A stretch of 64,000 bases of DNA, taken from the IMG/VR virus record IMGVR_UViG_3300028573_000011, positions 1 to 64,000 of that record; one strand, 5' to 3'. This document shows positions 1 through 61,019 of this stretch, one piece after another. The notes under the pieces are model-generated. The model worked only from the letters and a program-made list of their open reading frames with translations. It was not told the origin of the DNA and ran no database searches. The number at the start of each line of letters is the position of its first letter. The stretch's first letter is position 1. The position numbers and the translations under genes are program-made. Source of the DNA: a virus.

Positions 1-1399
1 GGTACTCCTTGCGCAGGGCGGCTGCGGTCTCGGTGCCGCCGCCGAGGAAGAAGCCGCTGTTCGCCCACCGGTCCAGTGAGCGCAGCACGGACTCGCCGGG
101 CAGGATCGTGAAGTGCTTGGTGTGGGCGCCGGGGGCCTGGTGCGTGTACTGCTGCGTGGAGGAGAAGGAGACGACGTTGGCGGTGTCGCAGCGGATCGCG
201 AGGGCGATGCCGAGCAGCGCTGCGGCGTGCCACCGGGCCATCTCGGAGTTGTCCGACATGGGCTCGCGCATGGACGTTGAGGTGTCGACCATGATGAGGG
301 TTCGTCCGGGCAGCTCCGGGATGTTGGCCAGGGAGGCGGACAGCGCCCGCTCGAGTGCCCCGGCCCAGCGGAGATTGTGGCCGGCGGCCCGGTAGGCGGA
401 GAGGAAGCGGATCGGCAGTTGCCGGGACCGGGCGGCTTCGATGGGGTCGGCGATCCTGGCGGCGACGGTCTCGGCGGTGGTGTCTGAGATCTTCGCGTTG
501 TCGAGGTTCCGCAGGTTCCGGAGCAGGGCCATGTAGCCCATCGACGGGATGATCGCTTCCCACGCTGCGGCGTCCATCGGTCCTTGCAGCCAGCCGCTGA
601 GGGCTTCCCAGGTCATGCCGGCCTGGGCCAGCAGGCGATGGGCTCCGGGTTCTGTCAGGAGGGTTCGGCGCTTCTGGGTGGGGAGGCCCAGGAGCCATGC
701 GCGCCGGTTCAGCATGGGGAGGGAGGCCGGGATGGTGCTGCCTCGGCCGTGGCGGCGGTCCAGGGCACAGCGGAACAGGTCACCCTGCCAGGCCTTGGCG
801 GGGTCTGGGCTGGGGTGCACCAGGTCGATAACGTCGCCGAAGCGGAAGCCGGCGGCCGGGCTGTCGTACTTGAGCAGCGCGTGCTCGGTGTACAGCTGCC
901 GCACGGCGTCGGCGACGCCGTTCTTGACCGGCTTGGGGATGGCCCGGCCGTAGTGGGACGTCCAGTAGGCGAGGATCTCGCCGGGCTCGTCGGCGCGGGC
1001 GCAGGCGCTGCGGATGAACTGGCGGTTGTAGCCGGCGCCGTTGTCGGCTCCGGTGTCGAGCCGTGCCTTCACGGCTTCGCAGGCTACGACGACTGCGGCG
1101 CTGCGCATGTGGGCCGAGTTGCGCAGCCACGGGATGAAGCCAGCCATCCAGGCGGGGTCGTCGACGGCCACGGTCTGGGCAAGGGCGGCCAGGCGCTTGC
1201 CGCGGACCTCGGCGGTCTCGTAGTGGGTGTTCTGGCCGGCCATGTCGGTGACGGCGAGCAGGAAGAGCTCGCTGGCCGGGGTGCGCGCGAAGCCGGGGGC
1301 GCCCTCGTGGGTCAGGGCGTGGCCGGTGGTGGTGATCGGGCTAGTGATGCCGGCGGCACGGGCGGCGGCCAGGCCGGGCTTGCGATTCCAGTGGCCCAT
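1..1399 (-). CDS. rsr: Ro60/TROVE domain ribonucleoprotein (3' end outside window)
   Basis: Hand translation from ATG 1399 (RBS GGAAGG): THEGAPGFARTPASELFLLAV...WLRNSAHMRS...RADEPGEILAYW...YGRAIPKPVKNGVADAVRQLYTEHALLKYD...FRFGDVIDLVHP; vWA MIDAS motif LIMVDTSTSM near 270-300. Missing from the ORF track because it has no stop in the window. Confidence 0.95.
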   Translation of the reverse strand, partial: MGHWNRKPGLAAARAAGITSPITTTGHALTHEGAPGFARTPASELFLLAVTDMAGQNTHYETAEVRGKRLAALAQTVAVDDPAWMAGFIPWLRNSAHMRSAAVVVACEAVKARLDTGADNGAGYNRQFIRSACARADEPGEILAYWTSHYGRAIPKPVKNGVADAVRQLYTEHALLKYDSPAAGFRFGDVIDLVHPSPDPAKAWQGDLFRCALDRRHGRGSTIPASLPMLNRRAWLLGLPTQKRRTLLTEPGAHRLLAQAGMTWEALSGWLQGPMDAAAWEAIIPSMGYMALLRNLRNLDNAKISDTTAETVAARIADPIEAARSRQLPIRFLSAYRAAGHNLRWAGALERALSASLANIPELPGRTLIMVDTSTSMREPMSDNSEMARWHAAALLGIALAIRCDTANVVSFSSTQQYTHQAPGAHTKHFTILPGESVLRSLDRWANSGFFLGGGTETAAALRKEY

Positions 1400-1443: not shown

Positions 1444-1579
1444 GCCCGAGGTCGGGTCGGCTGCGCTGTTCGTGCCTGCCGCTCTCCCAAGTGAGCTACC
1501 GCCCCTCGCGCAGGGCGTCCCGGAGTTGAACCGGGCCCGTCACAGACTTACTGAAGCACTCGCGGCCATCGCACCGGGC
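1444..1579 (-). ncRNA. yrlA: Y RNA, YrlA-type tRNA mimic (copy nearest rsr)
   Basis: Ends pair as CCCGGUGCG...CGACCUCGGG; inside, T-arm CCGGUUCAACUCCGG precedes a closed acceptor-like hairpin and D-arm GUAGCUCACUUGGGAGAGC; adjacent to TROVE gene. Confidence 0.85.
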
Positions 1580-1590
1580 GGGGCTCAAGC

Positions 1591-1618
1591 CCTTCCGAGG
1601 TCGTTTCGCACCGGAAGG
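1591..1618 (-). ncRNA. Minimal Ro-binding hairpin (mini Y element)
   Basis: CCUUCCGGUGCGAAACGACCUCGGAAGG: same GGUGCG/CGACCUC bulged helix as the flanking Y RNAs, closed directly by a short GAAA-containing loop. Confidence 0.7.
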
Positions 1619-1634
1619 TGCGTTGCGTCTTCGT

Positions 1635-1760
1635 ACAGTCCCGAGGTCGGGTGATCACGGAGTTGCGATAGGCCGCTCCGCCACGGTGCCGCAGCACCAC
1701 CGGGATTCGAACCCGGGATTCGTCTGCACGAAGTACCCGTGGTCGGCGCACCGGGACTGT
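1635..1760 (-). ncRNA. yrlA: Y RNA, YrlA-type tRNA mimic
   Basis: ACAGUCCCGGUGCG...CGACCUCGGGACUGU terminal helix; T-arm CCGGGUUCGAAUCCCGG; D-arm GUGGCGGAGCGGCCUAUCGC. Confidence 0.88.
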
Positions 1761-1768
1761 CGGGTTCC

Positions 1769-1917
1769 TCGAACCGAGGTCTGGCGACCAAGGAGACAAC
1801 AGTGCTCTGCCTGCTGAGCTACGGTCGGCCGCTGCTAGCTGCGGCTGGACCGGCCGGATTTGCACCCGCGACCTCTGCCTTAACTGGGAAGTAGCCCTGG
1901 TCTGCGCACCGGTTCGA
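1769..1917 (-). ncRNA. yrlA: Y RNA, YrlA-type tRNA mimic
   Basis: UCGAACCGGUGCG...AGACCUCGGUUCGA terminal helix; T-arm-like GCGGGUGCAAAUCCGGC; D-arm GUAGCUCAGCAGGCAGAGC. Confidence 0.85.
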
Positions 1918-1926
1918 AGAGTGCTT

Positions 1927-1991
1927 CTCAGAGTTCCAGATCGGATCCGGTAGGCCGCGTCAAAGGAGGAACCGGGTCCTGCGCACCTGAG
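1927..1991 (-). ncRNA. Short Y-like RNA without tRNA domain
   Basis: CUCAGGUGCG...GGAACUCUGAG terminal helix, inner CCGGU/ACCGG stem and pyrimidine-rich loop UCCUCCUUU. Confidence 0.65.
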
Positions 1992-2032: not shown

Positions 2033-2098
2033 GAGGCTGTCGCAAGCCTCGAATAAAGTGTTGAATGGCTAAATCAATGGTCCGCTGTATCAAGAACC

Positions 2099-2866
2099 CT
2101 ATGGAGTGCCGCTCGCGCGCCGCTTCTGCTTGCGCTTCCAGGCACCCCAGCCAGTCGCGTTCCAGAACGGCGTCCAGCCCTTGCAGACCGCGCACGGGAA
2201 CGCATGCTTGGTCAGGGTCCCATTGATGGTCACCCTGAACACCATCTGGCCGGTACTCTCGCAGCTCGGACAGATGAACCGGGACGAGTTGGCCGGTGCC
2301 TTCTGCGCGGGGCCGCCGCCGTCGACCGCCCAGGCGTGGCCGCATTCGACGAGGCCGATGACGGTCAGGATCCGGCCGGCGCGCGTGTACAGGGGCCGCT
2401 GGCCCGAGCCGCGGCACCAGTCGCAACGCAGCCGGTTCAGGCCGATCAGATCGGCCGGCGTCGGGGACCTGGGCTTCGACCTGCTCGATCCGTCCATGCG
2501 GCCGCCGGGGCCCCGCCGGTAGTCCCGGGCCTGGGACGAGCGCTGCGTGCCGCCGGCCCCGGCCCGCTTGGCGTCCGCGCGCCGCGGGGTCGCAGCCGCG
2601 CCGGGCCGCGGGGTGCCGGCGGCTGGCGCGCGGTAAGTCCGGGCGCGGCGTGCGGACGCGAGCTCCCAGGTGCCGTCGGCACGGCGGCGCGCGCCGCGGG
2701 CGGAGACGGTCCTGGTGTCTGGGTCGCGACGGATCGAGGCAACTGTCTTGGGCCCGAACAGCGCCCGGGCCACCCGGCGCGGGGTCGGGTGGTTCCGCTC
2801 GTCGCCGAACAGGATCCGCGCGGCCACGCGGTGCGGCGCCCAGCCGGACGACTTGCGCCTGCCCAT
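2099..2866 (-). CDS. Basic protein with DnaJ-like CxxCxGxG zinc fingers
   Basis: CDWCRGSG, CPSCESTG, CAVCKG; starts 1 nt after the traB stop. Confidence 0.7.
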   Translation of the reverse strand: MGRRKSSGWAPHRVAARILFGDERNHPTPRRVARALFGPKTVASIRRDPDTRTVSARGARRRADGTWELASARRARTYRAPAAGTPRPGAAATPRRADAKRAGAGGTQRSSQARDYRRGPGGRMDGSSRSKPRSPTPADLIGLNRLRCDWCRGSGQRPLYTRAGRILTVIGLVECGHAWAVDGGGPAQKAPANSSRFICPSCESTGQMVFRVTINGTLTKHAFPCAVCKGWTPFWNATGWGAWKRKQKRRASGTP

Positions 2867-2867
2867 C

Positions 2868-5078
2868 TCAGGCCTCCCGTGCTCGGCGAGTTGGGGGGAC
2901 GGTGCACTCGAAGCGCTCGCTGCGGCCGTCGTCGTCGCGGCGGCTGGTCGCACCCTGGTGGATCTTGAATGCGTTCAGGGCGGCCTTGCAGGAGTCGCGG
3001 GCGGTCAGCCCGGGCAGCCGGTAAGCCTGGAGCTCGGCGATCGTGGCCGAGCCCAGGACGCGGAACAGCTGCCAGGCGTCCAGGAGCTCGTCGGCGACAG
3101 GGCTGTCGTCGGGGTAGGTCTCGCCGACGACCCGCAGGTAGGGGACGCCGGCGTGGAAGGCTTCGGCGTCGTCGACCACATCGCGGCCACCGCGCGGCCG
3201 GGGCCCGGCGGGCCCGGCCGGGCCGCCGGGATGGCGCGGGTCGCAGCGCCCTTGGAGGACCTCCTCCATCGCCTCGGCGGTGCGCTCGTCCAGGGCCGGG
3301 CGGCTGTCGCGGTTGGCTTCGACGGTGGCAACGATCTGCCCGGGTTCGATCATGTAGCCGCGGGCGACGGTTGGCCGGGGGTGGTCCGGCGACTTCGGCC
3401 GGAACATGCCGGGCTTGGGGAGCACGGTCTCGTCGGCGCGCCAGCCCTCGCCGTGGGCGCCGGGGCCGTGGATGACGTTTGTCTGGGTCGCGCTCCTGGT
3501 CCGGTAGCAGGCGATGTTGGTGAACTGGCCGGAGCCGTCGGTGGTCCCGCCGAGGGCCTTGCTCGACGGGGACTGGGTGGCGCCGATGATGATCAGGCCC
3601 AGGGCGCGGGAGACCTGCATCAGGCTGAGCCACTGGGTGAACAGCTTGGGGTCCAGGCGCAGCATCTCGGCGAGCTCGTCGATGAGGACGATGATGGCCG
3701 GCCCGTGGATGTCGGGGTCCCATTCGCGGACCGGCAGGCCGGTGCGCTCGCGCTCCTCGCGCAGGATCTGGCCGCGGACCTCCATCGCGGCGCCGAGCGC
3801 CTCCAGGAGCAGGGCGACGTCGCCGATGCCGTAGGCGGCGCGGTAGGCGACGGGCTCGTACGGGCCGAGTTCCAGCTGGCCGGGCTTGAGGTCCATCAGG
3901 ACCATGACGGCATTGTCCATGGAGGCGATGGAGCAGGCAGCGACGTTGACGCCGACGGACTTGCCGCCGTCGGTGATGCCGGCGTACAGCGTGTGGCGGC
4001 CGCGGAACCGGAAGGCAACCGGACGCTGGCCGTCGCGGACGCCGAGGTTGACCGGGTCCTTGATGCTGCGGGTGTTCGGGCCGGGCCACGGGACGGCGTC
4101 GTCGAGGGTGGAGTTCTCGCCGTCCTGGACGCGGATCTCGAAGCGGTTCCCGATCGCGGTGGGGATGATCTCCAGGCCGCGGCAGCCGAGGTTGCCGCGG
4201 AGGGTGTCGATGCGGGCGGCGAGCCAGCGGCTGTTCACGGTCTTGGACTCGGGGGTGTAGATCCAGGTGACCCAGGAGTCGGGGCCGCTTCGGCGGACTG
4301 CGTCGATGCGGATCGGCGCGACGCCGATGGCGGCGAAGGCGGCGTGGAGCCGGGCCGCCTCGTCGCTCATCATCGGCAGGCTGGCCGCCGTCGGCATCGG
4401 CGGCCCGCCGACGGGTGCCGGTGGCATCGGCGCCGACGCGACGGCGGCGTGGTAGTCGATGACGAAGTCGCGGTCGGCGGCCCGCCGATGGCGGCGCCAG
4501 TCGATCGAGCCGAGGGTGCCGACGGCGGCGAGCAGGAGGGTCGTCATCGCCGAGATGCCGGAGAAGCCGGCGCCGACGGCGGCGGCGCCTGAGACGCCGA
4601 CGGCGCCGCCGACGATGAGGCCGCGGGTGATGTGCCGGTCGGCGTCGGCGCCGTGGAGGTGGTGGCCCAGCCATCCGGCGGCGGGGGCGAGGGCCCCGGC
4701 GGCCAGGAAGGGGAGCATCAGCCAGATGTGGTTGGGCTCCATGTTGGCCCACCAGCCCGTCGCAGAGAACGCGCAGGAGCCGATGGCCGGCCACAGGTGG
4801 TAGTGGCGGATCAGGGCGAGGATCTCCGGCTCGGGCCGGGGGAGGTCGCGCTGGTCGATGAGGGCTGCGACGTGTAGCGGAAGCGGCTGGTAGGCGGGGT
4901 GCAGCGTGTAAGCGGGGTGGGCGGGAAAGACCGTTCCGTGCAGCTCAGAGCCGTTGTCGTACGGCGTGGCACGCCACACACCACAGTCATCAGAGGCCGG
5001 GTTCTCCGGCGCGCGCCGGAGATCGAGCGGGGCCTGGTGACTGTGGTGTGTGGCGTGGCCGTCCGTGATGTCGTGCAC
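2868..5078 (-). CDS. traB: FtsK/SpoIIIE-family conjugative DNA translocase (TraB/TraSA type)
   Basis: N-terminal TM helices, Walker A AGITDGGKS, DLKPGQLEL, Walker B IIVLIDELAE, RALGL..IGATQSP, C-terminal wHTH-like region; GTG 5078 overlaps upstream TAG. Confidence 0.88.
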   Translation of the reverse strand: MHDITDGHATHHSHQAPLDLRRAPENPASDDCGVWRATPYDNGSELHGTVFPAHPAYTLHPAYQPLPLHVAALIDQRDLPRPEPEILALIRHYHLWPAIGSCAFSATGWWANMEPNHIWLMLPFLAAGALAPAAGWLGHHLHGADADRHITRGLIVGGAVGVSGAAAVGAGFSGISAMTTLLLAAVGTLGSIDWRRHRRAADRDFVIDYHAAVASAPMPPAPVGGPPMPTAASLPMMSDEAARLHAAFAAIGVAPIRIDAVRRSGPDSWVTWIYTPESKTVNSRWLAARIDTLRGNLGCRGLEIIPTAIGNRFEIRVQDGENSTLDDAVPWPGPNTRSIKDPVNLGVRDGQRPVAFRFRGRHTLYAGITDGGKSVGVNVAACSIASMDNAVMVLMDLKPGQLELGPYEPVAYRAAYGIGDVALLLEALGAAMEVRGQILREERERTGLPVREWDPDIHGPAIIVLIDELAEMLRLDPKLFTQWLSLMQVSRALGLIIIGATQSPSSKALGGTTDGSGQFTNIACYRTRSATQTNVIHGPGAHGEGWRADETVLPKPGMFRPKSPDHPRPTVARGYMIEPGQIVATVEANRDSRPALDERTAEAMEEVLQGRCDPRHPGGPAGPAGPRPRGGRDVVDDAEAFHAGVPYLRVVGETYPDDSPVADELLDAWQLFRVLGSATIAELQAYRLPGLTARDSCKAALNAFKIHQGATSRRDDDGRSERFECTVPPTRRAREA

Positions 5079-6328
5079 TAGCGGGCCGCCGCGGTGTCGG
5101 AGCCGTCCTCGGCCAGGTCGTGGAGCTGACGGTAGAGCTCCTGGGTGGCCTTGTGGACGTCGCGGGCGAGGGAGTCGCTGGGCTCGGGCAGGCCGTATCG
5201 AGACCCTCCGATCGCTTCGACCAGGGCGGCCGCGGTCGGTGGGACACCGGTGCTCAGGAGGAGATAGCGGTAGGACGGGAACGCGCGGGCGACCAGGTCG
5301 TGGAGCTCGGCTGTGGCCTTGCGGATGTCGCGGGCGCGGGACGGCCCGAGTTCGCCCATGCCTGCTTGCTTGATCGCTTCGGCCAGGACCGGGGCGGTCG
5401 GGGTGGTGCCGGTGGTCTCGGAGAGGTGCCGATAGATCGGAAGGACGTCGAGGGCCCACTGGGCGGTGTTCCGGCGGACGGCGGCGCCGGCGGTGCTCCA
5501 GTCGTAGACGGTGGCGCCGCTGTCGGCGCCGACGTCGGCGGTCTGCGGCTTGCCGGCGGTCGGCGCCGCGTCGGCGGCGGTCGGCGCGTGGTCGGCGGCG
5601 GGTGCCGACGTCGGCACCGGCGGTGCCGTCGGCGCCGCATCGGCGGTCGGCACCCGATCGGCGGTCGGCGGGGCGTCGGCGGCGAGCGCCGACGTCGGCA
5701 CCGGGCGTGCCGTTGGCGTCGGCACCCGATCGGCGGCGGGGCGGCTGTCGGCGGGGGCGGTCCGGGTGCGGTCGGCGCCAACGGGGGCGTGCCAGTCGGC
5801 GGTCGCGGTCGGCGCCTGGTCGGCGGTGCCGGTGTCGGCGGGTGCCGAGGGGAGTTCGGCGGGGGCGCCGCCGGCGGCGAGGCGGTAGAGGTGGACGAGC
5901 CGGTCGGCGATGTAGACCGGCAGAGCCGTGACGGTGATCAGGAGGGTGACTTCAACCCAGGCGGGAATCTTGTTCCCGGCGAGGGTGAGGGTGTGGAACA
6001 CGGTGTTGGCGGCGACGGTGATGATGAGTGCCCGGCGAGTGTTGCCGATCACCTCGGCGTGCTTGGGGTGTGTGCGGGGGATGTTGGCCCCGAAGATGAT
6101 CGCGGTGATGGCGTAGCCGTCGATGACGGCGGGCAGCAGCCAGGCCAGTGAGGCCGGAGCCTTGGCCATGATGGCGATCTTGAAAAGTGCGGGCGCGGAC
6201 CATGCCTCGGCGCAGGCGAGCGCGAAGACGACGCCGATCAGGACGACCCAGCGTGCCCTGCGCGACACGGGTGGTAGCTCCTGTGGCGCGTGCGAAGTCG
6301 TGCGGGCGCTACCGTTGTGGGTGTTCAC
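5078..6328 (-). CDS. Spd-like (DUF2637-type) membrane spread protein
   Basis: Four N-terminal TM segments (AWLLPAVIDGY), Pro/Ala/Thr repeat linker, duplicated C-terminal HTH-like unit (PTAPVLAEAI/PTAAALVEAI); RBS AGGGAG; coupled to traB. Confidence 0.7.
   Translation of the reverse strand: MNTHNGSARTTSHAPQELPPVSRRARWVVLIGVVFALACAEAWSAPALFKIAIMAKAPASLAWLLPAVIDGYAITAIIFGANIPRTHPKHAEVIGNTRRALIITVAANTVFHTLTLAGNKIPAWVEVTLLITVTALPVYIADRLVHLYRLAAGGAPAELPSAPADTGTADQAPTATADWHAPVGADRTRTAPADSRPAADRVPTPTARPVPTSALAADAPPTADRVPTADAAPTAPPVPTSAPAADHAPTAADAAPTAGKPQTADVGADSGATVYDWSTAGAAVRRNTAQWALDVLPIYRHLSETTGTTPTAPVLAEAIKQAGMGELGPSRARDIRKATAELHDLVARAFPSYRYLLLSTGVPPTAAALVEAIGGSRYGLPEPSDSLARDVHKATQELYRQLHDLAEDGSDTAAAR
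5520..5850. repeat. Degenerate tandem repeats (GTCGGC-rich) encoding TAD/APT/VPT units
   Basis: Repeated GTCGGCACC, GATCGGCGG and GCCGACGTCGGC blocks. Confidence 0.6.
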
Positions 6329-6537
6329 GTCGCTCCCTATAGCGCGTGGACGGCAAAGCCCGGTGGTGCCTTGGCACCGCCGGGTTTTGTCTGTATCCCG
6401 TAGCCACCATATCCCCGAGCCGATCTGATGCAGGGCTCTTATTCCAGACGGTCCGCTGGAGGTCCTTGCTGGAGGGGTATGGGCCCGGCCGCCGCACCGG
6501 GATACAGATAGGGGGACGCGGCGGCCGAGTTCGTGGG

Positions 6538-6648
6538 CTACACGCTGGCGGTCAGCGCGATCGCGCACGCGATGGCGCAGATCACGGCGACGGCGATCAT
6601 CAGCGGTAGCGCGTGGGGTGCCGGCGGGCGCCGGTGGGCGGTGCTCAC
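6538..6648 (-). CDS. Small membrane peptide
   Basis: 36 aa with one hydrophobic helix; GTGA overlap with upstream gene. Confidence 0.45.
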   Translation of the reverse strand: MSTAHRRPPAPHALPLMIAVAVICAIACAIALTASV

Positions 6649-7166
6649 GGCTGGTCCACGGCCAGGACGGCGCGGACGGTCTTGGTGTCGCCCTCGCGGT
6701 AGGTGGTGACGGCCTCGGCGCGGGCGGCGACGTCGAGCAGGCCGCGGCCGTGGGAGGCGAAACGGTCGTCGTCGGGGTCGGCGTCGGGGTCGTCGAGCCA
6801 GGCCAGGGCGTGGTCGGTCCAGGCCGCGGCGCAGGGCCAGACGGGCATGTGGTCGGCGTCGGGGTCGGTGACCTCGATGACGACGGAGCAGCCGATCACG
6901 GTGAGGCGCAGCTCGATGGTGCCGCCGGGACCGGGCCACGTGGCGTGGCGGTCGGCGTTGGACACGAGCGCGTCGACGATCTGGACCAGGTCGTCGGCCG
7001 CCCTTATGGGCAGCTGGTGGTGGTGGGCGAAGCCGGCGGCGACCATGCGGCTGTAGGCGATCGGCTCGATCGCGTCGCGCGCGATGGAGCTCTGCAGGAC
7101 GGCGCCGTGCAGCAGCCGGTGCGCGGCGGCCGCGGGGGCGGCCTTCGGCATGGTGCTGAGTCTCAT
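6645..7166 (-). CDS. RsbW-like HATPase_c ATP-binding protein
   Basis: ALVSNADRHA, IEVTDPD, HGRGLLDV, KTVRAVL motifs. Confidence 0.85.
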   Translation of the reverse strand: MRLSTMPKAAPAAAAHRLLHGAVLQSSIARDAIEPIAYSRMVAAGFAHHHQLPIRAADDLVQIVDALVSNADRHATWPGPGGTIELRLTVIGCSVVIEVTDPDADHMPVWPCAAAWTDHALAWLDDPDADPDDDRFASHGRGLLDVAARAEAVTTYREGDTKTVRAVLAVDQP

Positions 7167-7618
7167 AAGGCACCGCCCGTCCGGCCGCGCTTGACCGCGG
7201 TGAGGATCATCGCGGCGAACGCTTCGGCCTCGTCGAGGTCCATGTCGTGGTCGCCGCCGTCGTTGAAGCACAGCTGGATGGCTGGCGGCGCGCCGTTCTC
7301 GGCGGTGAGGTGGATGTCGGCGGAACGCACGGCGGTGGCCGCGGGTCCGGCATCGGTGATGGTCAGGCGGGTGCTGGTGGCGTGGACGCCGCTGTCGGCG
7401 TCGTGGTCGTTGCACCAGGTGGGGCAGGCGGTTCGCGGTCGCGGCATGACGTGGGTCATCGCTCCGAGATCGTCCGGCATGTCGTCATCCTCAGACTCCG
7501 ATTGTGCTGACCGATTGCTAACGACGTTCCCCGCGTCGGATACACGCATCAGGGCTTTGAGATACGTCTTTCGCCCGGTCAGGTTGGCCGGCCCCAGGAC
7601 TATGCGCTGGGCCGTCAT
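7163..7618 (-). CDS. Hypothetical protein with CPxWCxxH motif (DUF6907-like)
   Basis: CPTWCNDHD...H...LDEAEAFA; start uncertain. Confidence 0.55.
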   Translation of the reverse strand: MTAQRIVLGPANLTGRKTYLKALMRVSDAGNVVSNRSAQSESEDDDMPDDLGAMTHVMPRPRTACPTWCNDHDADSGVHATSTRLTITDAGPAATAVRSADIHLTAENGAPPAIQLCFNDGGDHDMDLDEAEAFAAMILTAVKRGRTGGAL

Positions 7619-7824
7619 CGCGACACGCCCTTGCGCGGCGTGACGATCGCGGCGATCTGGCTCTGCGGGATCCGGATCCGGCCGGTCGGGGTCTCCCAGT
7701 AGGTGATGAGGCCGCCCTTGGCCCAGCGGCGGACGGTTCCGCGGTCGACCTCGAACGCCTCGGCTGCCTGGGCGCAGGAAAGCGAGGGCTCATCGCGGCC
7801 GGGCGGGGAGCTGGTGACGTCCAT
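7615..7824 (-). CDS. BldC/Xis-like MerR-type HTH DNA-binding protein
   Basis: LSCAQAAEAFEVDRGTVRRWAKGGLITYWETPTGRIRI; RBS GAGGA. Confidence 0.85.
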   Translation of the reverse strand: MDVTSSPPGRDEPSLSCAQAAEAFEVDRGTVRRWAKGGLITYWETPTGRIRIPQSQIAAIVTPRKGVSR

Positions 7825-7867
7825 CGGCGGTCGTCCTCACGTCGGGGTGGTTGCTGTGTTTGATGCA

Positions 7868-7896
7868 ACCGTAGCGCTATGGTGCTATAGCGTCAA
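7868..7896 (-). promoter_or_regulatory. Promoter of transfer operon with embedded operator
   Basis: TTGACG-N17-TACGGT; palindrome GCTATAGC (7884-7891) in the spacer. Confidence 0.75.
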
Positions 7897-7937
7897 TGCG
7901 GCTAGCGTGATCGCGCGCCGGTTTCGACGCAACAGAA

Positions 7938-7962
7938 AAGCCCCGGAGCATATCCGGGGCTT
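7938..7962 (-). terminator. Intrinsic terminator after GntR gene
   Basis: AAGCCCCGGA/TCCGGGGCTT hairpin ending in a T-tract on the minus strand. Confidence 0.7.
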
Positions 7963-7993
7963 GCAACGCTCAATTGATATGAAGGGCAGGCGC

Positions 7994-8731
7994 CTAATCG
8001 TGAACAGGGAGGTCGTATTCGAGGCGGTACCTGTTGCCGCCGAAGACCATCTCCAGCGCTTCGACGGGTCGGTCGTCGTCGGTCCAGGTCATCCGCAGCA
8101 GCCGAAAGACCGGCACGCCGGTCTGGAGCCTGAGGGTCTCGATCTCGTACGACGTCGGCATGCGGGCGTCGACCCATTCCCGGGACCGGCGCGGTGGGTA
8201 GCCCAGGCTGCGCAGGGCCGTCGGAACGCCGCCAGCCAGCTTCACGTGGCGGCCCAGCTTCGTCCCGCCGGCGATTTCAATCGGCAGGTGGGAGACCGCG
8301 ATCTCAAGAATCTCGTCGCCCTCGCGCATGTGCCGTGTGCGCCTGACAGCGGGTTCACCCGGATCGAGACCCAGCAGCTCGGCGATCTCGTCCGGGGGTG
8401 CCACCTCGGTAACCTCGATAAGGTCCGTGACAGCGTTGTAGGAGGCTGGCGCGCCCGGAACGACCGGGGAGACGTGATCTGCCGACCGGCTGATCTTTCG
8501 CCGGACCTCGCGCACGAAGACGCCGACGCCGGGGCGGGTCTCCACGAGCCCGGCCGCCTTGAGCGGCCGCAGGGCCTTCTGGACGGTGGCGTTCGCGATG
8601 CCGTAGGTCCGCATCAGCTCGTTCACGGACGGGATGGGCGCGCCGGGCGGGATCTCCCCCTTCTCAATCTTCGCCCGCAGGTCGTTGGCTACCCGCAGGT
8701 AGGCCGCCGGACCGCTGTCCCACTCGGACAT
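7994..8731 (-). CDS. GntR/HutC (UTRA) regulator, KorSA/TraR-like
   Basis: AYLRVANDLRAKIEKGEIPPGAPIPS...TVQKAL..L...GLVETRPGVGVFV plus UTRA domain; upstream of tra operon. Confidence 0.92.
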   Translation of the reverse strand: MSEWDSGPAAYLRVANDLRAKIEKGEIPPGAPIPSVNELMRTYGIANATVQKALRPLKAAGLVETRPGVGVFVREVRRKISRSADHVSPVVPGAPASYNAVTDLIEVTEVAPPDEIAELLGLDPGEPAVRRTRHMREGDEILEIAVSHLPIEIAGGTKLGRHVKLAGGVPTALRSLGYPPRRSREWVDARMPTSYEIETLRLQTGVPVFRLLRMTWTDDDRPVEALEMVFGGNRYRLEYDLPVHD

Positions 8732-8763
8732 CGCCGCCACTCCCGCCACGCTCGCAATGCGAC

Positions 8764-8787
8764 GCTATGCCGCTATAGCAGCATAGC
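8764..8787. promoter_or_regulatory. Palindromic operator, probable GntR site
   Basis: GCTATGC-C-GCTATAGC-A-GCATAGC; same core as in the tra promoter. Confidence 0.65.
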
Positions 8788-9037
8788 CCACTACGCAGGG
8801 GCTCCCAGGTGCTGTGGGTGCCGAGACCCCCCGGACGAGTCGAACGCAAGAAGGCCGGCCCCGAAGGACCGGCCCACGGACCGGCGAGCTGTCACTCGCC
8901 GATCAGACGCTCCCCCAATGCCGCGAAGCAAGGAGACCGTTCAGTGCTCACTGTAGCAACAGGACGCTGCCCCGCCAGGGCGGTTCCGTGAGGAACAGCG
9001 CACTGCGGCGGGTCCGGCATGCCGCCGGAGGCCCCGC

Positions 9038-10051
9038 GTGAAGATCATGAAGCCGGTACCGGACGGAACCGGCTGGGTAGCCATCCCAAACGCCACGGCG
9101 CGGGACACCCAGCTCGACCGCCGGGCCCTCGGCCTGCTGGTCGAGATCCTGTCCTTCCCCGACGGCTGGGAGATGAACGCCGACAGCCTCGCCACCGACG
9201 GCACCGAGGGCCGCAACGCCGTGCGCGCCGCCATGCGGAAGCTCGAGGATGCCGGCTACGTCGTCCACATCCGCCACCGCGGCGACCGCGGACGCTGGCT
9301 GACCGCAGCGTTCGCGGGCAACTCCCCTGCGGCGGCGCGCGCCGCCGCAGACGCGTGGCTGGAGCAGAATCCGGACGCGGCAGAGACACAAACGCCCAGG
9401 TCGGACCGAGGTACAGGAAACGGGGCGTCGGCCAACGGGGCGTCGGTGGAGGGGGCGTCGGCCGACGGGGTGTCGGCCAACCGGGCGTTCTATGAAAGAA
9501 GGGAGCCAAAGAAGGTGCCAAAGAAGGTCTCTAACACGTCCCCACCTGCGGCCCCGGCTCCCTCTCCCTCTCCCCCGGCTGCACCGGCGACTACGACCGT
9601 GGCCGAGCCAGACGGCGGAGAGAGGGGAAACCCATCGCCGTGGCTGCCACAACTCGATCCCGTCGCCGACGTCGTTGATGCCTGGGCCAAGGCCCGGGCC
9701 GAAACCGGCATGCCCGCGATGGCCAGCGAGCGAAGCCGGGTCCGATCCGGCGCCGTCGAGCTGCTCGGCGCAGGGCACGACGTCGCCTACCTGGCCCGGG
9801 TGGCATCCTGGATGGCCAGCGCGCATCCGGGCTGGTCAGACCTCGGGAGAGCTCGCACCGCCCCCGGCGCGCCGCTATTCGGTCACGGGCAGACGGCCGC
9901 CGTACCCGCGCCACGCCAGGACCGGCCTCCGTGTGTCGCGGATGCCTGCCGTGGCTGCGATCACGATGAATGCAATCGCAACGGGTTCCTGATCCACAGC
10001 GATCTCGGCGTCCGCTGCCCGTGCTGGTTCGTCCCGGAAGCGAGGTTCTAA
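9038..10051 (+). CDS. Replication initiator-like wHTH protein (Rep1)
   Basis: WVAIPNATARDTQLDRRALGLLVEILSFPDGWEMNADSLA...EGRNAVRAAMRKLEDAGYV; internal iterons; Cys-rich C-terminus. Confidence 0.75.
   Translation: MKIMKPVPDGTGWVAIPNATARDTQLDRRALGLLVEILSFPDGWEMNADSLATDGTEGRNAVRAAMRKLEDAGYVVHIRHRGDRGRWLTAAFAGNSPAAARAAADAWLEQNPDAAETQTPRSDRGTGNGASANGASVEGASADGVSANRAFYERREPKKVPKKVSNTSPPAAPAPSPSPPAAPATTTVAEPDGGERGNPSPWLPQLDPVADVVDAWAKARAETGMPAMASERSRVRSGAVELLGAGHDVAYLARVASWMASAHPGWSDLGRARTAPGAPLFGHGQTAAVPAPRQDRPPCVADACRGCDHDECNRNGFLIHSDLGVRCPCWFVPEARF
9421..9537. repeat. Iteron-like 15-bp direct repeats plus A-rich tract (candidate origin 1)
   Basis: CGGGGCGTCGGCCAA-like unit x4 at 9421/9436/9451/9466, then CCAAAGAAGGT x2 in an A-rich stretch. 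Confidence 0.65.
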
Positions 10052-10053
10052 CC

Positions 10054-10578
10054 ATGGAGTACGAGCCCACCGGATCGCGCCCGTGCCACCGCGGGGAATG
10101 CGAACGCCACCACCACCCGCCGTGCAACCAGGGCTGGATCAGCGTCGATCGCGTGTGCCCGTGCTGGTCGGCCCGGCGGCGTCTGGTCGTGAACCACAGC
10201 GGGCCGCCGGACCAGGCGCCGCCCGCGCCGATGCCTGCGAGCATCCGGGCGGCCTGGAACACGGCCCGGGCCGACGCGCGCCCGCTGCCGCAGTCCGGAC
10301 CGTCGCGGCGCCCGGATCCGGCGAGCAGTCCCCCGCCGGTACCGGGGCCGCTTGATCCCCGCGGCGCCGAGGTGGTGAGCCGCCTCAGCCTCGATCCGGC
10401 GCCGGCCGGTCCGCTACTGCGGCGGCTGGTCGGCGCCGTCGCGGCAGCCCTGGATCAGGGGTGGACCGTCGAGGATCTCGTGCAGCTGCTGGACGCCGAC
10501 CGGGATCCGGACCGTGAGCCGGTCCGGTACTGGATCTGGCGGCTCGGCTGGATCGGGCCGGCGCTTGATGCACGCTGA
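10054..10578 (+). CDS. Hypothetical protein with N-terminal Cys/His zinc motif
   Basis: CHRGECERHHHPPCNQGW...CPCW, resembling the Rep1 C-terminus; follows Rep1 stop by 2 nt. Confidence 0.6.
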   Translation: MEYEPTGSRPCHRGECERHHHPPCNQGWISVDRVCPCWSARRRLVVNHSGPPDQAPPAPMPASIRAAWNTARADARPLPQSGPSRRPDPASSPPPVPGPLDPRGAEVVSRLSLDPAPAGPLLRRLVGAVAAALDQGWTVEDLVQLLDADRDPDREPVRYWIWRLGWIGPALDAR

Positions 10579-10603
10579 CGGTGGGCGGCATCTGTCGACT
10601 GGG

Positions 10604-20932: not shown

Positions 20933-21400
20933 TCAGCTGCCGACGTCGTACCCAGCGGCCACGATCAGCGCCCGCGCGTCCCGGACGATCCGGGCGTGGT
21001 CGAACGCAACCTTCGCCGCGGGGTCCAGAACCTCGTTGACGAAGACCCACTCGACGTCGGCGGCATCGTCGCCGGCCGTGACCGCGGGTCGCTTGGGGAG
21101 CACGACCGTGTACGCGAAGGTGACGTAACGGCCACGCGGGTCCCGTCCCGGTTCGGCGTAGACGCCGACGGGCTTAAGGGTCCTGCCGCCCAGGTCCAGA
21201 TTGGTCTCCTCGGTGAGCTCGCGGCGCGCGGCCAGCTCGATGTCCTCGCCCGGGTCGACGTGTCCGCCCGGGAGCGCCAGGGCCCCGGCGAACGGCTCGT
21301 ACGCGCGGCGGATCATCAGGACGTACAACTCGCCATCGTTGATGCCAAAGACAACAACGTCCACTGTCAGCCTGGCGGTCTCTCGCCCGGTATCGGTCAT
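20933..21400 (-). CDS. NUDIX hydrolase (ADP-ribose pyrophosphatase/NrtR-like)
   Basis: LPGGHVDPGEDIELAARRELTEETNL, RDPRGR, AGDDA, AFDH. Confidence 0.93.
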   Translation of the reverse strand: MTDTGRETARLTVDVVVFGINDGELYVLMIRRAYEPFAGALALPGGHVDPGEDIELAARRELTEETNLDLGGRTLKPVGVYAEPGRDPRGRYVTFAYTVVLPKRPAVTAGDDAADVEWVFVNEVLDPAAKVAFDHARIVRDARALIVAAGYDVGS

Positions 21401-51922: not shown

Positions 51923-52124
51923 CGGTGCACTTTTCTGGTGCACGGCCCGGGAGAACTTGGGCGAAGTTCGGGGAACATGGACGATGATCGGCGTCTCAGC
52001 GCCCTGATCAGCAGAAGTTAAGGGGGTTCAAGTCCCCCCTCGGACACTTTGCTGAGCTCCTGAACTGCATGTTTGCAGTCAGGGGCTTTACACTTTCGGA
52101 ATCTGGTGCACCGTCTGGTGCACC
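51923..52124 (+). mobile_element. att site (attP-like): tRNA 3'-end core with arm-type repeats
   Basis: GGGGGTTCAAGTCCCCCCTCGGACAC (52022-52047; T-arm plus acceptor strand, probably tRNA-Leu); GGTGCAC pairs at ~51923-51943 and TCTGGTGCACC x2 at 52102-52123. Confidence 0.8.
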
Positions 52125-60044: not shown

Positions 60045-61019
60045 TTACGGGGTGGCTAAGGCTGTGGCCAGGTGCGCGACGACGGCGGTCGCGATCTGGT
60101 CCGCGGTTGCCCCGGCAATCAGCAGCGGGGCCAGTGCGGCGGCCAGCGCCTTCGCGTCGACGGCCGGGGGCTGCTGGATCTTGACGGCCAGTGCGTTGAC
60201 GGCGTCGCGGGCCTGCTTGGCGTACAGGGCCGCGGCCCGGGCGCCGCCGTCGGCCCAGATCAGCGCGGCGTCGTCGTCGAACTGGCCATTCGCCGGGAAG
60301 TCAGCCGCGATCTCCGGCCACTTCTGGCCGATGGTGGCTGGGATGGTGCCCATGAGGTCTCCGGAGGTGGTGGCGGTCGCTGTCGGCGTTTCCGCGCTGA
60401 GGAGGGTGAGGAGTTGCGCGACGGTGCCCCGGAAGGCGTTGTAGTCGAGCGCGCGACCGCCGTCGGTGGCCTGGTTGGTGTACTGGTACAGCGCGGGGGT
60501 CACACCGCCGTAGGCGTTCCAGCCCGAGGCCTTGTCCCCGGGGTACAGGTGCGTGGGGCTGCCGGCCCCCCCGGGGTAGGCCGAGGAGATGAGTCCCAGG
60601 CCGCGCGAGGTCAGGCCGCTCAGGCTCGGCGACCCGAGCTCCTGCCAGTACCAGTGCGGGAGGTAGACCAGGCGCAGCCGCAGTCCCGCCGCCTTCGCCG
60701 CGTCGGCGTAGGCCAGCACCTGGCTCAGGGTGGGTTTGGACGAGCCGGACGGCTCGACGTCGAGCATGCCCGGCAGGGTCGGGTCGCCCACACACGCCTT
60801 GGTGTGCGCGATCTGCGCCGGGACGCTCTCGCTGGTCAGGAAGTGGTACCAGACGAAGGGCCGCTTCAGGCTCGCGGCCTGCCGCCGCCAGCCCTGGTAC
60901 GCGGAGTCGGTGTAGTACGTGCCCTCGCTCGCCTTGGCGATGACGAAGGAGGCGGCCGCGAGGCGCGACAGGTCCAGCCCGGCCTGATAGGCGGAGATGT
61001 CGGGTCCGTGGATCGTCAC
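60045..61019 (-). CDS. Endolysin, GH25 lysozyme
   Basis: DISAYQ, AKASEG, YHFL, MLDVE, YQYT, LDYNAFRG; RBS AGGAGG. Confidence 0.92.
   Translation of the reverse strand: MTIHGPDISAYQAGLDLSRLAAASFVIAKASEGTYYTDSAYQGWRRQAASLKRPFVWYHFLTSESVPAQIAHTKACVGDPTLPGMLDVEPSGSSKPTLSQVLAYADAAKAAGLRLRLVYLPHWYWQELGSPSLSGLTSRGLGLISSAYPGGAGSPTHLYPGDKASGWNAYGGVTPALYQYTNQATDGGRALDYNAFRGTVAQLLTLLSAETPTATATTSGDLMGTIPATIGQKWPEIAADFPANGQFDDDAALIWADGGARAAALYAKQARDAVNALAVKIQQPPAVDAKALAAALAPLLIAGATADQIATAVVAHLATALATP

What the first reader, a model, noticed from the sequence alone, without database searches (positions are those of the whole stretch)
2099..10578. TraB conjugation module and second replicon in the same element as tail and lysis genes: phage-conjugative element hybrid
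Seen: traB, spd-like, BldC/Xis-like HTH, KorSA-like GntR with matching operators and a Rep with iterons, contiguous with a phage early region, att/int, endolysin and tail genes, with no host housekeeping genes between. Established: TraB alone mediates dsDNA transfer of Streptomyces plasmids and AICEs. Inference: a temperate phage that could also spread between hyphae by conjugation, or an AICE nested in a phage.
Basis: partly seen in the sequence, partly recalled or inferred. Interest (0 to 1): 0.75.

Follow-up and report, generated by a model that had tools for sequence, protein, structure and literature searches.

The report
Temperate actinophage carrying TraB transfer module
A complete 95-kb temperate phage of a Streptomyces-like soil bacterium carries, as a conserved part of its own genome, the plasmid-type DNA pump (TraB) and helper genes that could move it between hyphae without virus particles; this kind of hybrid has been known since the plasmid-phage pZL12 (2010).

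Summary
Window 2099-10578 encodes a membrane protein, a TraB-like FtsK-type DNA pump and a basic zinc-ribbon protein (coupled trio). It also encodes a kinase-like protein, a BldC/Xis-like HTH, a GntR/UTRA repressor with two matching 17-bp operators, and an O-like replication initiator with iterons inside its own gene.

The contig is a circular ~95.3-kb IMG/VR phage genome with a full head, tail and lysis set. It has one tyrosine integrase, whose attP core equals the 3' end of tRNA-Leu(GAG). A second, unrelated initiator has its own iterons.

It is not a chimera: independent assemblies from several samples give the same 95-kb contig. It is not a nested AICE: there is no second integrase or att pair, and the trio sits next to packaging or lysis genes in many independent viral contigs and Streptomyces/Kitasatospora loci.

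The architecture matches pZL12, whose tra gene plus two neighbours mediate conjugation, but the sequences are nearly unrelated, and this element has integrase/attP where pZL12 has ParAB. Transfer function is untested.

New here: a position-conserved hairpin of short repeats over the first ~110 nt of traB, a candidate clt or attenuator.

This scan has reported TraB cassettes in temperate actinophages on other DNA several times.

The parts
1..1399 (-). Ro60-like TROVE+VWA protein (runs across the contig origin). First gene of the phage RNA-repair cassette that abuts the tra trio.
   Evidence: Pfam TROVE E 6.6e-15 and VWA_2. The rest of the cassette (HNH, RNA ligase, RlaP, PNKP) is.
1444..1991 (-). 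Y-RNA-like repeat array between Ro60 and g2.
2099..2866 (-). g2: basic, Cys-rich (CxxC zinc-ribbon-like) 255-aa protein, translationally coupled to traB. Third gene of the conserved trio.
   Evidence: GC3 0.91; weak DnaJ_CXXCXGXG match; homologs 37-46% identical directly after traB in L007-L011.
2868..5078 (-). TraB-like membrane-anchored FtsK-type dsDNA translocase, 736 aa.
   Evidence: Pfam PF01580. Walker A GKS 372-374 and Walker B DE 467-468 are invariant in 24 homologs. Hydrophobic helices at about 96-215. FtsK motor fold. C-terminal winged helix.
4961..5066 (-). Long hairpin/inverted repeat of short CCACG/ACACG-type repeats with an inner GC mini-hairpin, covering codons ~5-39 of traB. 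Candidate clt or translational attenuator.
   Evidence: I7. DNA fold z = -6.0 here and -2.4 to -3.0 in L008, L013, L014 and L015 at the same position, with different arm sequences. Formal covariation inconclusive.
5078..6328 (-). g4: membrane protein with 3-4 N-terminal TM helices, a P/T/A-rich repeat linker and a duplicated C-terminal domain. Spd-like by position.
   Evidence: TM prediction; DUF2637 below cut-off; homologs directly upstream of traB in L007-L011 and L016.
6645..7166 (-). g5: HATPase_c_2 (anti-sigma-factor-kinase-like) protein.
   Evidence: Pfam E 5.2e-8.
7163..7618 (-). g6: small protein with a weak DUF6907 match.
7615..7824 (-). g7: 69-aa HTH_17 protein (BldC/excisionase-like).
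   Evidence: Pfam HTH_17 E 4.3e-7. NCBIfam HTH_BldC 40.9 bits and excisionase domain 22 bits, both below cut-off.
7876..7892 (.). Operator O1 (CGCTATAGCACCATAGC) in the promoter region of g7-g6-g5.
7994..8749 (-). g8: GntR/HutC-type repressor with UTRA domain (KorSA-like).
   Evidence: Pfam GntR E 3.9e-18 and UTRA E 2.7e-22. Homologs lie upstream of traB in L012, L013, L014, L019 and L039, and on the opposite strand in L053 and L054.
8764..8787 (.). Operator O2: two overlapping copies of the 17-mer in the divergent g8/g9 promoter region.
9038..10051 (+). g9: O-like replication initiator (N-terminal wHTH) whose gene contains its own iterons.
   Evidence: PHROG 1456, 4707, 428, 270. The wHTH is shared with phage 'replication initiation O-like' proteins and with pSLE1 and Gilgamesh-type plasmids.
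9419..9528 (.). Iteron array (15 bp x 4.7) followed by A-rich 12-mers. Candidate origin inside g9.
   Evidence: TRF score 91; sequence.
10054..10578 (+). g10: 174-aa protein of unknown family, coupled to g9.
   Evidence: No family hit.
20933..21364 (-). NUDIX hydrolase, candidate Pif-like transfer-immunity factor.
   Evidence: Pfam NUDIX E 2.2e-22. Homologs lie directly upstream of the trio in L007, L011 and L024. 45% identical to pZL12.76c in the pZL12 tra region. Pif role from PMC2440964.
41301..42374 (-). g63: second, unrelated initiator-like protein in the early operon, with about eight palindromic iterons (TTCCGGCAACnnGTTGCCGG) at about 41598-41870 inside the gene.
   Evidence: 8-mer cluster; sequence; weak PHROG 270; no similarity to g9.
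52022..52047 (+). attP core candidate: 26/26 identical to the 3' end of tRNA-Leu(GAG) of a Streptomyces and a Kitasatospora genome.
   Evidence: It is the only copy in the circle.
52186..53595 (+). The only site-specific recombinase: a tyrosine integrase, 469 aa.
   Evidence: PF00589; no serine recombinase.
60045..61019 (-). GH25 endolysin.
   Evidence: Pfam.
62445..64000 (-). Start of the tail/head/packaging module, which continues beyond the window to 82 kb (minor tails, tape measure, major head protein, protease, portal, large terminase).
   Evidence: PHROGs.

Best explanation
The window is two thirds of one complete, circularly assembled ~95.3-kb temperate siphovirus-type actinophage from rhizosphere soil.

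Besides a full virion, lysis and early-gene set, it carries a Streptomyces-type double-stranded-DNA transfer cassette as an integral, lineage-conserved part. The cassette is a multi-TM membrane protein (g4), a membrane-anchored TraB-like FtsK motor with a C-terminal winged helix (g3), and a basic zinc-ribbon protein (g2). Next to it are a GntR/UTRA repressor with two palindromic operators, a small BldC/Xis-like HTH and an O-like initiator with iterons inside its own gene. A NUDIX (Pif-like) gene lies elsewhere in the genome.

Proposed working (inferred):
1. The phage lysogenises by integrating at tRNA-Leu(GAG) through its single tyrosine integrase.
2. The GntR repressor keeps the g7 operon and the divergent initiator gene silent.
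3. On derepression the excised circle replicates from the g9 origin.
4. TraB hexamers at the membrane load on a cis site, for which the conserved repeat hairpin in the first 110 nt of traB is the best candidate. They pump the double-stranded genome into neighbouring hyphae or compartments, helped by g4.
5. The phage would thus spread without virions, in addition to normal infection driven by the second initiator (g63), the DnaB-like helicase and the structural module.

Shown: the gene content, the circular single-molecule nature, the conservation of the cassette inside phages, the operators, the iterons and the attP match. Inferred: regulation, the clt assignment and transfer itself.
For: One molecule:
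- 127-bp terminal overlap.
- IMG/VR record with direct terminal repeats, CheckV 100% complete.
- Independent Logan assemblies of two samples each give a 95,233-bp contig with 0 differences over 1-20000. A strain variant in a third sample spans Ro60 to the initiator.

Phage identity:
- Large terminase, portal, protease, major head protein, tape measure and minor tails.
- GH25 endolysin and integrase.
- DnaB-like helicase.

TraB-type protein:
- Pfam match and invariant Walker motifs.
- FtsK motor fold, followed by the conjugative coupling protein TcpA.
- N-terminal membrane helices.
- C-terminal winged helix.
- Best named NCBIfam match is plasmid_TraB.

Integral, not nested:
- The g4-g3-g2 trio lies next to g123..g114, terminase and portal homologs, or next to endolysin and tail homologs, in many of 37 IMG/VR loci and 12 genome loci.
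- Those neighbours belong to phage families.
- Only one integrase and one att core.
- No bracketing repeats.

Regulation: operators occur only in the two promoter regions of the module.

Precedent:
- pZL12 has GntR, NUDIX, a membrane protein and an FtsK-like Tra just upstream of its packaging genes.
- AICE biology of KorSA and Pif is described in PMC2440964.
- TraB, clt and TRS are described in PMC4170104.
Against: - No experiment exists on this element or any close relative.
- TraB scores only 37 bits against the NCBIfam plasmid_TraB equivalog (cut-off 800). It is 26% identical to pIJ101 Tra and 24% over 162 residues to pZL12 Tra, so function cannot be transferred by homology alone.
- g4 and g2 have no significant family membership.
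- The clt assignment is unproven. Formal covariation was inconclusive, and the hairpin is absent in L009 and L012.
- The g9 initiator is of a type common in phages as well as plasmids, so it is not evidence of a plasmid origin.
- Recent phage papers read FtsK-like genes as developmental mimics instead (PMC13587820).
Confidence: 0.6

Rival explanations
1. The TraB-like pump serves a phage-specific purpose other than conjugation. Examples: moving replicating phage DNA across septal cross-walls within an infected mycelium, interfering with host FtsK/SpoIIIE-dependent chromosome segregation and sporulation, or excluding superinfecting DNA.
For: - The cassette sits among phage genes at a conserved place near the packaging genes.
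- PMC13587820 links phage FtsK-like genes to host development.
- Large Bacillus phages, whose hosts are not mycelial, also carry FtsK-like genes.
- Sequence distance from proven TraBs is large.
Against: - The full AICE-type set (GntR repressor, NUDIX, Xis-like HTH, membrane partner, wHTH-bearing pump) recurs together.
- In pZL12 the analogous locus was reported to mediate conjugal transfer.
- Movement across cross-walls is itself the 'spread' half of Streptomyces conjugation, so this rival partly overlaps the main reading.
Confidence: 0.28
2. The element is maintained mainly as a low-copy plasmid prophage (a phage-plasmid like pZL12, pSLE1 or pAmyja1). In this reading g9 is the plasmid replicon and the tyrosine recombinase is a dimer resolvase rather than an integrase.
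For: - Circular assembly.
- Two unrelated initiators with their own iterons, as in P1-type phage-plasmids.
- The closest capsid relative is the 92.5-kb circular replicon pAmyja1.
- Gilgamesh relatives exist as 125-132-kb circular plasmids although Gilgamesh encodes an integrase.
Against: - No ParA or ParB.
- A 26/26 match to the 3' end of tRNA-Leu(GAG) lies 140 bp upstream of the recombinase gene, which is the classical attP arrangement.
- Distant relatives of the TraB locus lie inside Mb-scale Streptomyces contigs.
- A circular contig is also what a terminally redundant or cohesive-ended phage genome gives.
Confidence: 0.3
3. The tra/rep block is a separate AICE or small plasmid that inserted recently into a phage (nested element).
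For: The gene set resembles an AICE core: GntR, Xis-like HTH, Rep, TraB and a membrane protein.
Against: - No integrase or serine recombinase in or beside the block.
- No second att core.
- No bracketing direct repeat longer than 16 bp of GC-rich low-complexity sequence.
- GC content and GC3 are the same as the flanks.
- The trio occupies the same position in many diverged phage genomes.
- It is flanked directly by phage RNA-repair genes.
Confidence: 0.04
4. Assembly chimera of a plasmid and a phage.
For: The source is metagenomic.
Against: - The same 95,233-bp contig is produced by a different assembler in two separate samples with 0 differences.
- A variant strain contig crosses both borders of the trio.
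- An independent 11.6-kb contig from another metagenome links NUDIX, g4, traB and g2 to homologs of g123-g114.
Confidence: 0.02

Closest known systems
pZL12 / phage phiZL12 of Streptomyces sp. (GQ919031; Zhong et al. 2010, J Bacteriol 192:3747, cited through PMC3583192 and PMC4487206)
   Same: - ~90-kb circular element with full siphovirus genes.
- GntR regulator, NUDIX, a membrane protein and an FtsK/SpoIIIE-type Tra lie just upstream of terminase, portal, head, tail and lysis genes.
- Transfer reported to need the major tra gene plus two adjacent genes, matching the conserved trio here.
   Different: - Almost no sequence similarity: Tra 24% over 162 aa, GntR 30%, NUDIX 45%, no virion protein hit.
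- pZL12 has ParA/ParB; this element has none but has an attP matching tRNA-Leu.
- This element has two O-like initiators with internal iterons.
pFP4, a second published Streptomyces plasmid-phage (Chen et al. 2012, Plasmid 68:170)
   Same: Described by its title as a Streptomyces plasmid-phage (reference lists seen).
Streptomyces phage Gilgamesh (MN234216) and the 125-132-kb circular Streptomyces 'plasmids' related to it (CP108533, CP107934, CP109288, CP108441, CP070374, CP122459, CP107821)
   Same: - Cultured temperate phage with terminase, tyrosine integrase and an 'FtsK-like DNA translocase' followed by a membrane protein near the genome end.
- Its translocase is the best phage-collection match to this TraB: 34% identity, E 3e-40.
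- Relatives persist as circular plasmids.
   Different: - Larger genome; no DNA similarity to this element.
- The other genes of the module gave no match in the 17 kb around Gilgamesh's translocase, although the N-terminal wHTH of g9 matches Gilgamesh gene 81, about 70 kb away from it.
- No function has been proposed for the gene in the record.
AICEs (pSAM2, SLP1, pMEA300) and Streptomyces conjugative plasmids (pIJ101, pSVH1, pSG5)
   Same: - Functional toolkit: tRNA-targeting tyrosine integrase with attP, GntR (KorSA) repressor, Xis-type HTH, FtsK-domain Tra, NUDIX (Pif), and a Rep that binds repeats inside its own gene as RepAM does (PMC2440964).
- TraB acts as a hexamer on a clt made of 8-bp repeats (PMC4170104).
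   Different: - AICEs are compact (the best characterised are 10.9-17.3 kb) and carry no virion genes.
- Here the toolkit is dispersed over a 95-kb phage, with int/attP 42 kb and NUDIX 15 kb from traB.
- TraB is far below the plasmid_TraB equivalog cut-off.
- The candidate clt lies at the 5' end of traB.
pAmyja1 of Amycolatopsis japonica (NZ_CP008954, 92.5 kb, circular)
   Same: - Closest relative of the virion module: major head protein 62%, portal 57%, 16 structural genes in the same order.
- Also shares the GntR, a P450 and an HTH regulator.
   Different: Lacks the TraB trio. Has ParB-domain genes next to the terminase. Typed in PLSDB simply as a non-mobilizable plasmid.

Membership tests
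FtsK/SpoIIIE dsDNA translocase superfamily | RecA-type motor domain with Walker A and B motifs; FtsK alpha/beta fold | tested here: met
   PF01580 E 4.8e-8. GKS 372-374 and DE 467-468 invariant in 24 homologs. Foldseek hits to FtsK motors 6t8o, 6t8b and 2iut, E about 1e-16, TM 0.62-0.66.
Streptomyces TraB (main transfer protein of plasmids and AICEs) | N-terminal membrane association ahead of the motor | tested here: met
   Hydrophobic segments at 153-192. Long helices at 96-215 in the AlphaFold model. This is a prediction only.
Streptomyces TraB (main transfer protein of plasmids and AICEs) | C-terminal winged-helix DNA-binding domain | tested here: met
   H-S-H-H-S-S topology with pLDDT 82-93. 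All top PDB matches are winged-helix domains (MarR, MecI, ArsR, ORC2-WH) at rmsd 1.7-2.5 A, with weak E-values of 0.03-0.09.
Streptomyces TraB (main transfer protein of plasmids and AICEs) | A clt locus of 8-bp TRS repeats on the same element | tested here: inconclusive
   No non-coding 8-mer cluster was found. The candidate is the repeat-built hairpin at 4961-5066, conserved in position in most relatives. RNAalifold did not recover it. Binding is untested.
Streptomyces TraB (main transfer protein of plasmids and AICEs) | Sequence membership: NCBIfam NF041214 plasmid_TraB equivalog | tested here: not met
   37.1 bits against a cut-off of 800. 26% identity to pIJ101 Tra, E 7e-6.
Streptomyces TraB (main transfer protein of plasmids and AICEs) | Mediates dsDNA conjugal transfer and pock formation | not testable with these tools
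   Needs mating experiments.
AICE (actinomycete integrative and conjugative element) | Tyrosine or serine integrase with an adjacent attP that matches a host gene (criteria from PMC2440964) | tested here: met
   Integrase at 52186-53595. attP core at 52022-52047 equals the 3' end of tRNA-Leu(GAG). It lies 42 kb from traB and upstream, not downstream, of int.
AICE (actinomycete integrative and conjugative element) | GntR/XRE regulator, FtsK-domain transfer gene, Nudix hydrolase, replication protein | tested here: met
   All are present somewhere in the element.
AICE (actinomycete integrative and conjugative element) | Compact element (best-characterised examples 10.9-17.3 kb) bounded by att sites and without virion genes | tested here: not met
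   95.3-kb circle with a complete head, tail and lysis module. Single att core. No bracketing repeats.
Phage-plasmid | Complete virion and lysis genes together with a plasmid-type replication initiator | tested here: inconclusive
   Virion genes are present. The g9 initiator with iterons is present, but its type is common to phages and plasmids.
Phage-plasmid | Partition system (ParA/ParB or equivalent) | tested here: not met
   No PF01656 or PF02195 match in six frames. Other partition types were not searched.
Phage-plasmid | Extrachromosomal maintenance in the lysogen | not testable with these tools
   Metagenomic contig; only assembled contigs of the runs were available.
pZL12-type conjugative plasmid-phage | Gene order: GntR, NUDIX, membrane protein, then FtsK-like Tra directly upstream of packaging, head, tail and lysis genes | tested here: met
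   Annotation of GQ919031 compared. In this element NUDIX lies 15 kb away, but it is adjacent to the trio in relatives L007, L011 and L024.
pZL12-type conjugative plasmid-phage | Sequence homology of Tra and virion proteins | tested here: not met
   Only GntR, NUDIX and two small proteins match. Tra matches at 24% over 162 aa, E 1e-3.

The most novel reading that the evidence does not exclude
A TraB-type dsDNA transfer cassette, with its cis site built into the first ~110 nt of traB itself, may be an old, widely shared organ of temperate phages of mycelial actinomycetes. It would be combined with several unrelated virion modules and with either integrative or plasmid lysogeny. These phages would then routinely spread hypha to hypha without virions. 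AICEs and these phages would share one toolkit (tRNA integrase/attP, Xis, GntR, Nudix, self-binding Rep, TraB) by descent rather than by recent capture.
Probability: 0.3. Interest if true: 0.75.

Novelty: new variant of a known kind. Interest (0 to 1): 0.5.

Why it matters
If the cassette works, these phages have two routes of horizontal spread: infection by virions, and receptor-independent, DNase-protected DNA pumping between hyphae. That would alter how prophage host range, immunity and gene flow are modelled in antibiotic-producing actinomycetes. It would also blur the line between AICEs, plasmids and phages.

The general idea has been published for pZL12. This case adds four things:
- An integrative, ParAB-less, sequence-unrelated lineage.
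- Evidence that the cassette is common in viral contigs and prophages.
- A concrete, testable candidate cis site.
- Cultivable handles for experiments (Gilgamesh and its plasmid relatives).

Tried and rejected
IMG/VR and GTDB loci were used instead.
- Megablast of window 1-25000 found nothing useful in phages or plasmids.
- The first genome-contig scan with the single protein found nothing. The alignment-based scan worked.
- The gene at 11741-12931, suspected to be an integrase, is a PCMT methyltransferase.
- No serine recombinase. No ParA or ParB.
- g9 and g63 are not detectably related.
- Rfam did not score the ~35-nt tRNA fragment at the attP. The tRNA identity was shown by exact match to genomic tRNA-Leu genes instead.
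- MAFFT plus RNAalifold did not recover the traB 5' hairpin because the repeat units slip in the alignment. No covariance model was built.
- The 8-mer clusters in 5520-5900 are the coding repeats of the P/T/A linker of g4 and use words common throughout the genome, so they were not taken as clt.
- The ARAGORN 'tRNA-Ala' inside the terminase gene was taken as a false positive.
- The joints listed have sides of only 20-23 nt and were ignored.
- The pZL12 paper itself (PMC2897331) is not held. LN831788 was not found without the NZ_ prefix.

Full report
WHAT THE DNA IS. The window is the first 64 kb of a single-contig record of 95,441 bp. Its first 127 bases are repeated at its end, so it closes into a circle of about 95.3 kb. 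The record is an IMG/VR virus entry with direct terminal repeats and a CheckV completeness of 100%. G+C is about 70% throughout. I called genes by third-position G+C, which gave about 131 genes, mostly on the minus strand.

The part beyond the window holds a complete virion module: large terminase, portal, head-morphogenesis protein, protease/scaffold, major head protein, tape measure and minor tail proteins. The window itself holds the following:
- a GH25 endolysin, a tyrosine integrase, a P450, an HTH regulator and a sigma factor;
- a DnaB-like helicase, a C5 methylase and three DUF6745 paralogs;
- a NUDIX hydrolase and a glycosyltransferase.

No host housekeeping genes interrupt it.

THE OBSERVATION.
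- The 736-aa protein at 2868-5078 (minus strand) has an FtsK_SpoIIIE domain. Its Walker A (GKS 372-374) and Walker B (DE 467-468) motifs are invariant in 24 homologs.
- An AlphaFold model built on that alignment (mean pLDDT 73) shows N-terminal membrane helices, the motor, and a C-terminal helix-strand-helix-helix-strand-strand unit.
- Foldseek places the motor with solved FtsK motors (TM 0.62-0.66, E about 1e-16), followed by the conjugative coupling protein TcpA.
- The C-terminal 105 residues, folded separately, match only winged-helix DNA-binding domains.
- Upstream, and overlapping traB by its stop codon, is a 416-aa protein with 3-4 transmembrane helices, a P/T/A-rich repeat linker and a duplicated C-terminal domain. 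Its DUF2637 match is below threshold, so 'Spd-like' is a statement about position and topology only.
- Downstream, and also coupled, is a basic Cys-rich 255-aa protein.
- Further upstream lie a kinase-like HATPase_c_2 protein, a small protein, a 69-aa HTH_17 protein that resembles BldC and excisionases below their cut-offs, and a GntR/UTRA repressor.

The 'matching operators' are real. The 17-mer CGCTATAGCAnCATAGC occurs in 64 kb only at 7876-7892 (promoter region of the HTH operon) and as two overlapping copies at 8764-8787 (divergent GntR/initiator promoter). Chance expectation is 0.1.

The 'Rep' at 9038-10051 has a strongly coding N-terminal winged helix that matches phage and plasmid initiator families. 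Its iterons (15 bp x 4.7 at 9419-9488, then A-rich 12-mers) lie inside its own reading frame. This is the lambda O arrangement, and it is also the arrangement reported for the AICE protein RepAM (PMC2440964).

TESTS OF THE TWO STATED REFUTATIONS.

Chimera. The DNA occurs in many rhizosphere metagenome runs. In two separate samples, an independent assembler gives one 95,233-bp contig with no differences over positions 1-20000. It breaks only at an inverted repeat inside traB. In a third sample, a slightly different strain has a 12-kb contig running from beyond the origin through Ro60, g2, traB, g4, the GntR and into the initiator. An 11.6-kb contig from another metagenome links NUDIX, g4, traB (62% identity) and g2 to homologs of the genes that precede the terminase here.

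Nested element. There is one tyrosine integrase and no serine recombinase in six frames. There is one att core in the circle. No direct repeat longer than 16 bp of GC-rich sequence brackets the block. The block is flanked directly by the phage's Ro60/Y-RNA/RNA-repair cassette.

Both refutations fail.

THE CASSETTE BELONGS TO THE PHAGE LINEAGE. A profile of 24 homologs found 37 IMG/VR contigs and 12 loci in Streptomyces, Kitasatospora and MAG genomes that encode relatives with 28-67% identity.

I mapped all 131 proteins of this element onto those loci.
- The g4-traB-g2 trio is kept in the closest loci.
- Downstream of traB, homologs of g123, g120, g119, g118, g114 and g111, the terminase and the portal recur. 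Alternatively, convergent endolysin and tail genes recur.
- Upstream, the GntR homolog recurs in seven loci and the NUDIX in three.
- g123, g116, g114 and g111 belong to phage protein families.
- Among the 12 genome loci, which were not preselected as viral, eight show such phage neighbours.

The virion module itself is closest to pAmyja1. This is a 92.5-kb circular Amycolatopsis replicon with the same head and tail genes but no TraB. The TraB is closest to the 'FtsK-like DNA translocase' of the cultured phage Gilgamesh and to 125-132-kb Streptomyces plasmids that turn out to be Gilgamesh relatives. The cassette is therefore combined with at least three unrelated phage backbones.

LIFESTYLE. 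About 140 bp upstream of the integrase gene, 26 of 26 bases (52022-52047) equal the 3' end of tRNA-Leu(GAG) genes of a Streptomyces and a Kitasatospora genome. This is the usual form of an attP core and points to integration and to a Streptomycetaceae-like host. There is no ParA or ParB.

A second initiator-like gene (41301-42374) in the early operon contains about eight palindromic iterons, TTCCGGCAACnnGTTGCCGG. It is unrelated to g9. The g9 type is common in phages as well as plasmids, so it does not mark a plasmid ancestry.

A NEW DETAIL. The first ~110 nt of traB form a long hairpin (4961-5066). Its arms consist of short CCACG/ACACG-type repeats and their complements, around a small GC hairpin.
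- It folds far better than shuffles here (z = -6.0).
- It is found at the same position in L008, L013, L014 and L015 (z from -2.4 to -3.0). It is weaker in L016 (z -1.7), and weaker still in L007, L010 and L011. It is absent in L009 and L012.
- The arm sequences and the peptides they encode differ between relatives. The protein segment is poorly conserved and predicted disordered. This argues for selection on the nucleic acid.
- A standard alignment could not register the slipping repeats, so the formal covariation test is inconclusive.
- The style resembles the published clt of pJV1: nine CCGCACA[C/G][C/G] repeats plus inverted repeats (PMC3583192).
- A translational brake on a lethal 'kil'-type gene is an equally simple reading.

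COMPARISON WITH WHAT IS KNOWN. pZL12/phiZL12 (GQ919031) is a 90-kb circular Streptomyces plasmid-phage. Its annotation shows a GntR regulator, a NUDIX protein, a membrane protein, a 766-aa protein and a 725-aa FtsK/SpoIIIE protein immediately upstream of the packaging, head, tail and lysis genes. It also has ParAB and an integrase. [quoted passage not shown] A second plasmid-phage, pFP4, is cited in the literature, but I could not read it.

The layout here is the same, but the sequences are almost unrelated. The NCBIfam equivalog for plasmid TraB is missed by a wide margin. Taken as a whole, the element meets the functional list for AICEs in PMC2440964 (integrase plus attP, GntR, Xis-like HTH, FtsK-domain Tra, Nudix, Rep). 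It fails the compact, virion-free, att-bounded definition. A recent review of plasmid mobility treats phage-plasmids and Streptomyces TraB conjugation in separate sections. Recent Streptomyces phage papers mention FtsK-like genes only in passing.

VERDICT. The 'nested AICE' and 'chimera' readings are rejected. The 'phage that may also conjugate' reading is supported as an architecture and remains untested as a function.

It is a new, integrative, ParAB-less and sequence-unrelated variant of a kind known since 2010. Other follow-ups in this scan reported the same class on other DNA; I used them only as a lead to pFP4.

Confidence is about 0.85 that the cassette is an integral phage module, and about 0.5 that it mediates virion-independent transfer. 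Taken together, I put the full explanation at about 0.6.

Noticed in passing
window 4961-5066 (minus strand); L008:10001-10130, L013:9821-9950, L014:1368-1497, L015:4059-4188: Position-conserved long hairpin made of short CCACG/ACACG-type repeats over the first ~110 nt of traB. DNA fold z = -6.0 in the window. The arms differ between relatives but stay complementary. The Logan assemblies break exactly here.
   Followed up: partly
window 41301-42374, iterons at about 41598-41870: Second initiator-like gene in the early operon with about eight palindromic iterons (TTCCGGCAACnnGTTGCCGG) inside its coding sequence. It is unrelated to the g9 initiator, which also carries its iterons internally.
   Followed up: partly
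window 52022-52047: 26/26 identity to the 3' end of tRNA-Leu(GAG) of a Streptomyces and a Kitasatospora genome, 140 bp upstream of the only integrase. Probable attP core and a host clue.
   Followed up: yes
PLSDB records CP108533, NZ_CP107934, CP109288, NZ_CP108441, NZ_CP070374, NZ_CP122459, NZ_CP107821: Seven circular 125-132-kb Streptomyces 'plasmids', most of them typed non-mobilizable. They share about 80% DNA identity with the terminase, and in three records also with the FtsK-like region, of cultured phage Gilgamesh. They look like unrecognised phage-plasmids.
   Followed up: partly
NZ_CP008954 (pAmyja1; L056, L057): The 92.5-kb Amycolatopsis japonica 'plasmid' carries a complete head/tail/lysis module collinear with this phage (major head protein 62% identical), plus an integrase and ParB-domain genes. 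It is probably a phage-plasmid, and it lacks TraB.
   Followed up: partly
window 1-1399 and 1444-1991; contig 91158-95441 (L002:12158-16441): RNA-repair cassette: Ro60/TROVE-VWA, HNH, Rnl1-type ligase, RlaP nucleotidyltransferase and PNKP. A Y-RNA-like array gives weak Rfam YrlA hits. The cassette lies directly downstream of the tra trio.
   Followed up: partly
window 20933-21364; L007, L011, L024; pZL12.76c: A NUDIX hydrolase travels with the TraB cassette. It is adjacent to it in three relatives and lies in the pZL12 tra region (45% identity), which recalls the Pif transfer-immunity factor of pSAM2.
   Followed up: partly
window 35812-39695: Three tandem DUF6745 paralogs (E about 1e-33 to 1e-35 each).
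   Followed up: no
window 55054-56271 and 56831-58237: A cytochrome P450 and an HTH_31/XRE regulator next to the integrase region. Both are shared with pAmyja1 (32% and 25% identity).
   Followed up: no
contig 88899-88973 (L002:9899-9973, minus) and 81875-81956 (L002:2875-2956): A tRNA-Met gene among the small genes between traB and the terminase. ARAGORN also calls a tRNA-Ala inside the terminase gene, which is probably a false positive.
   Followed up: no
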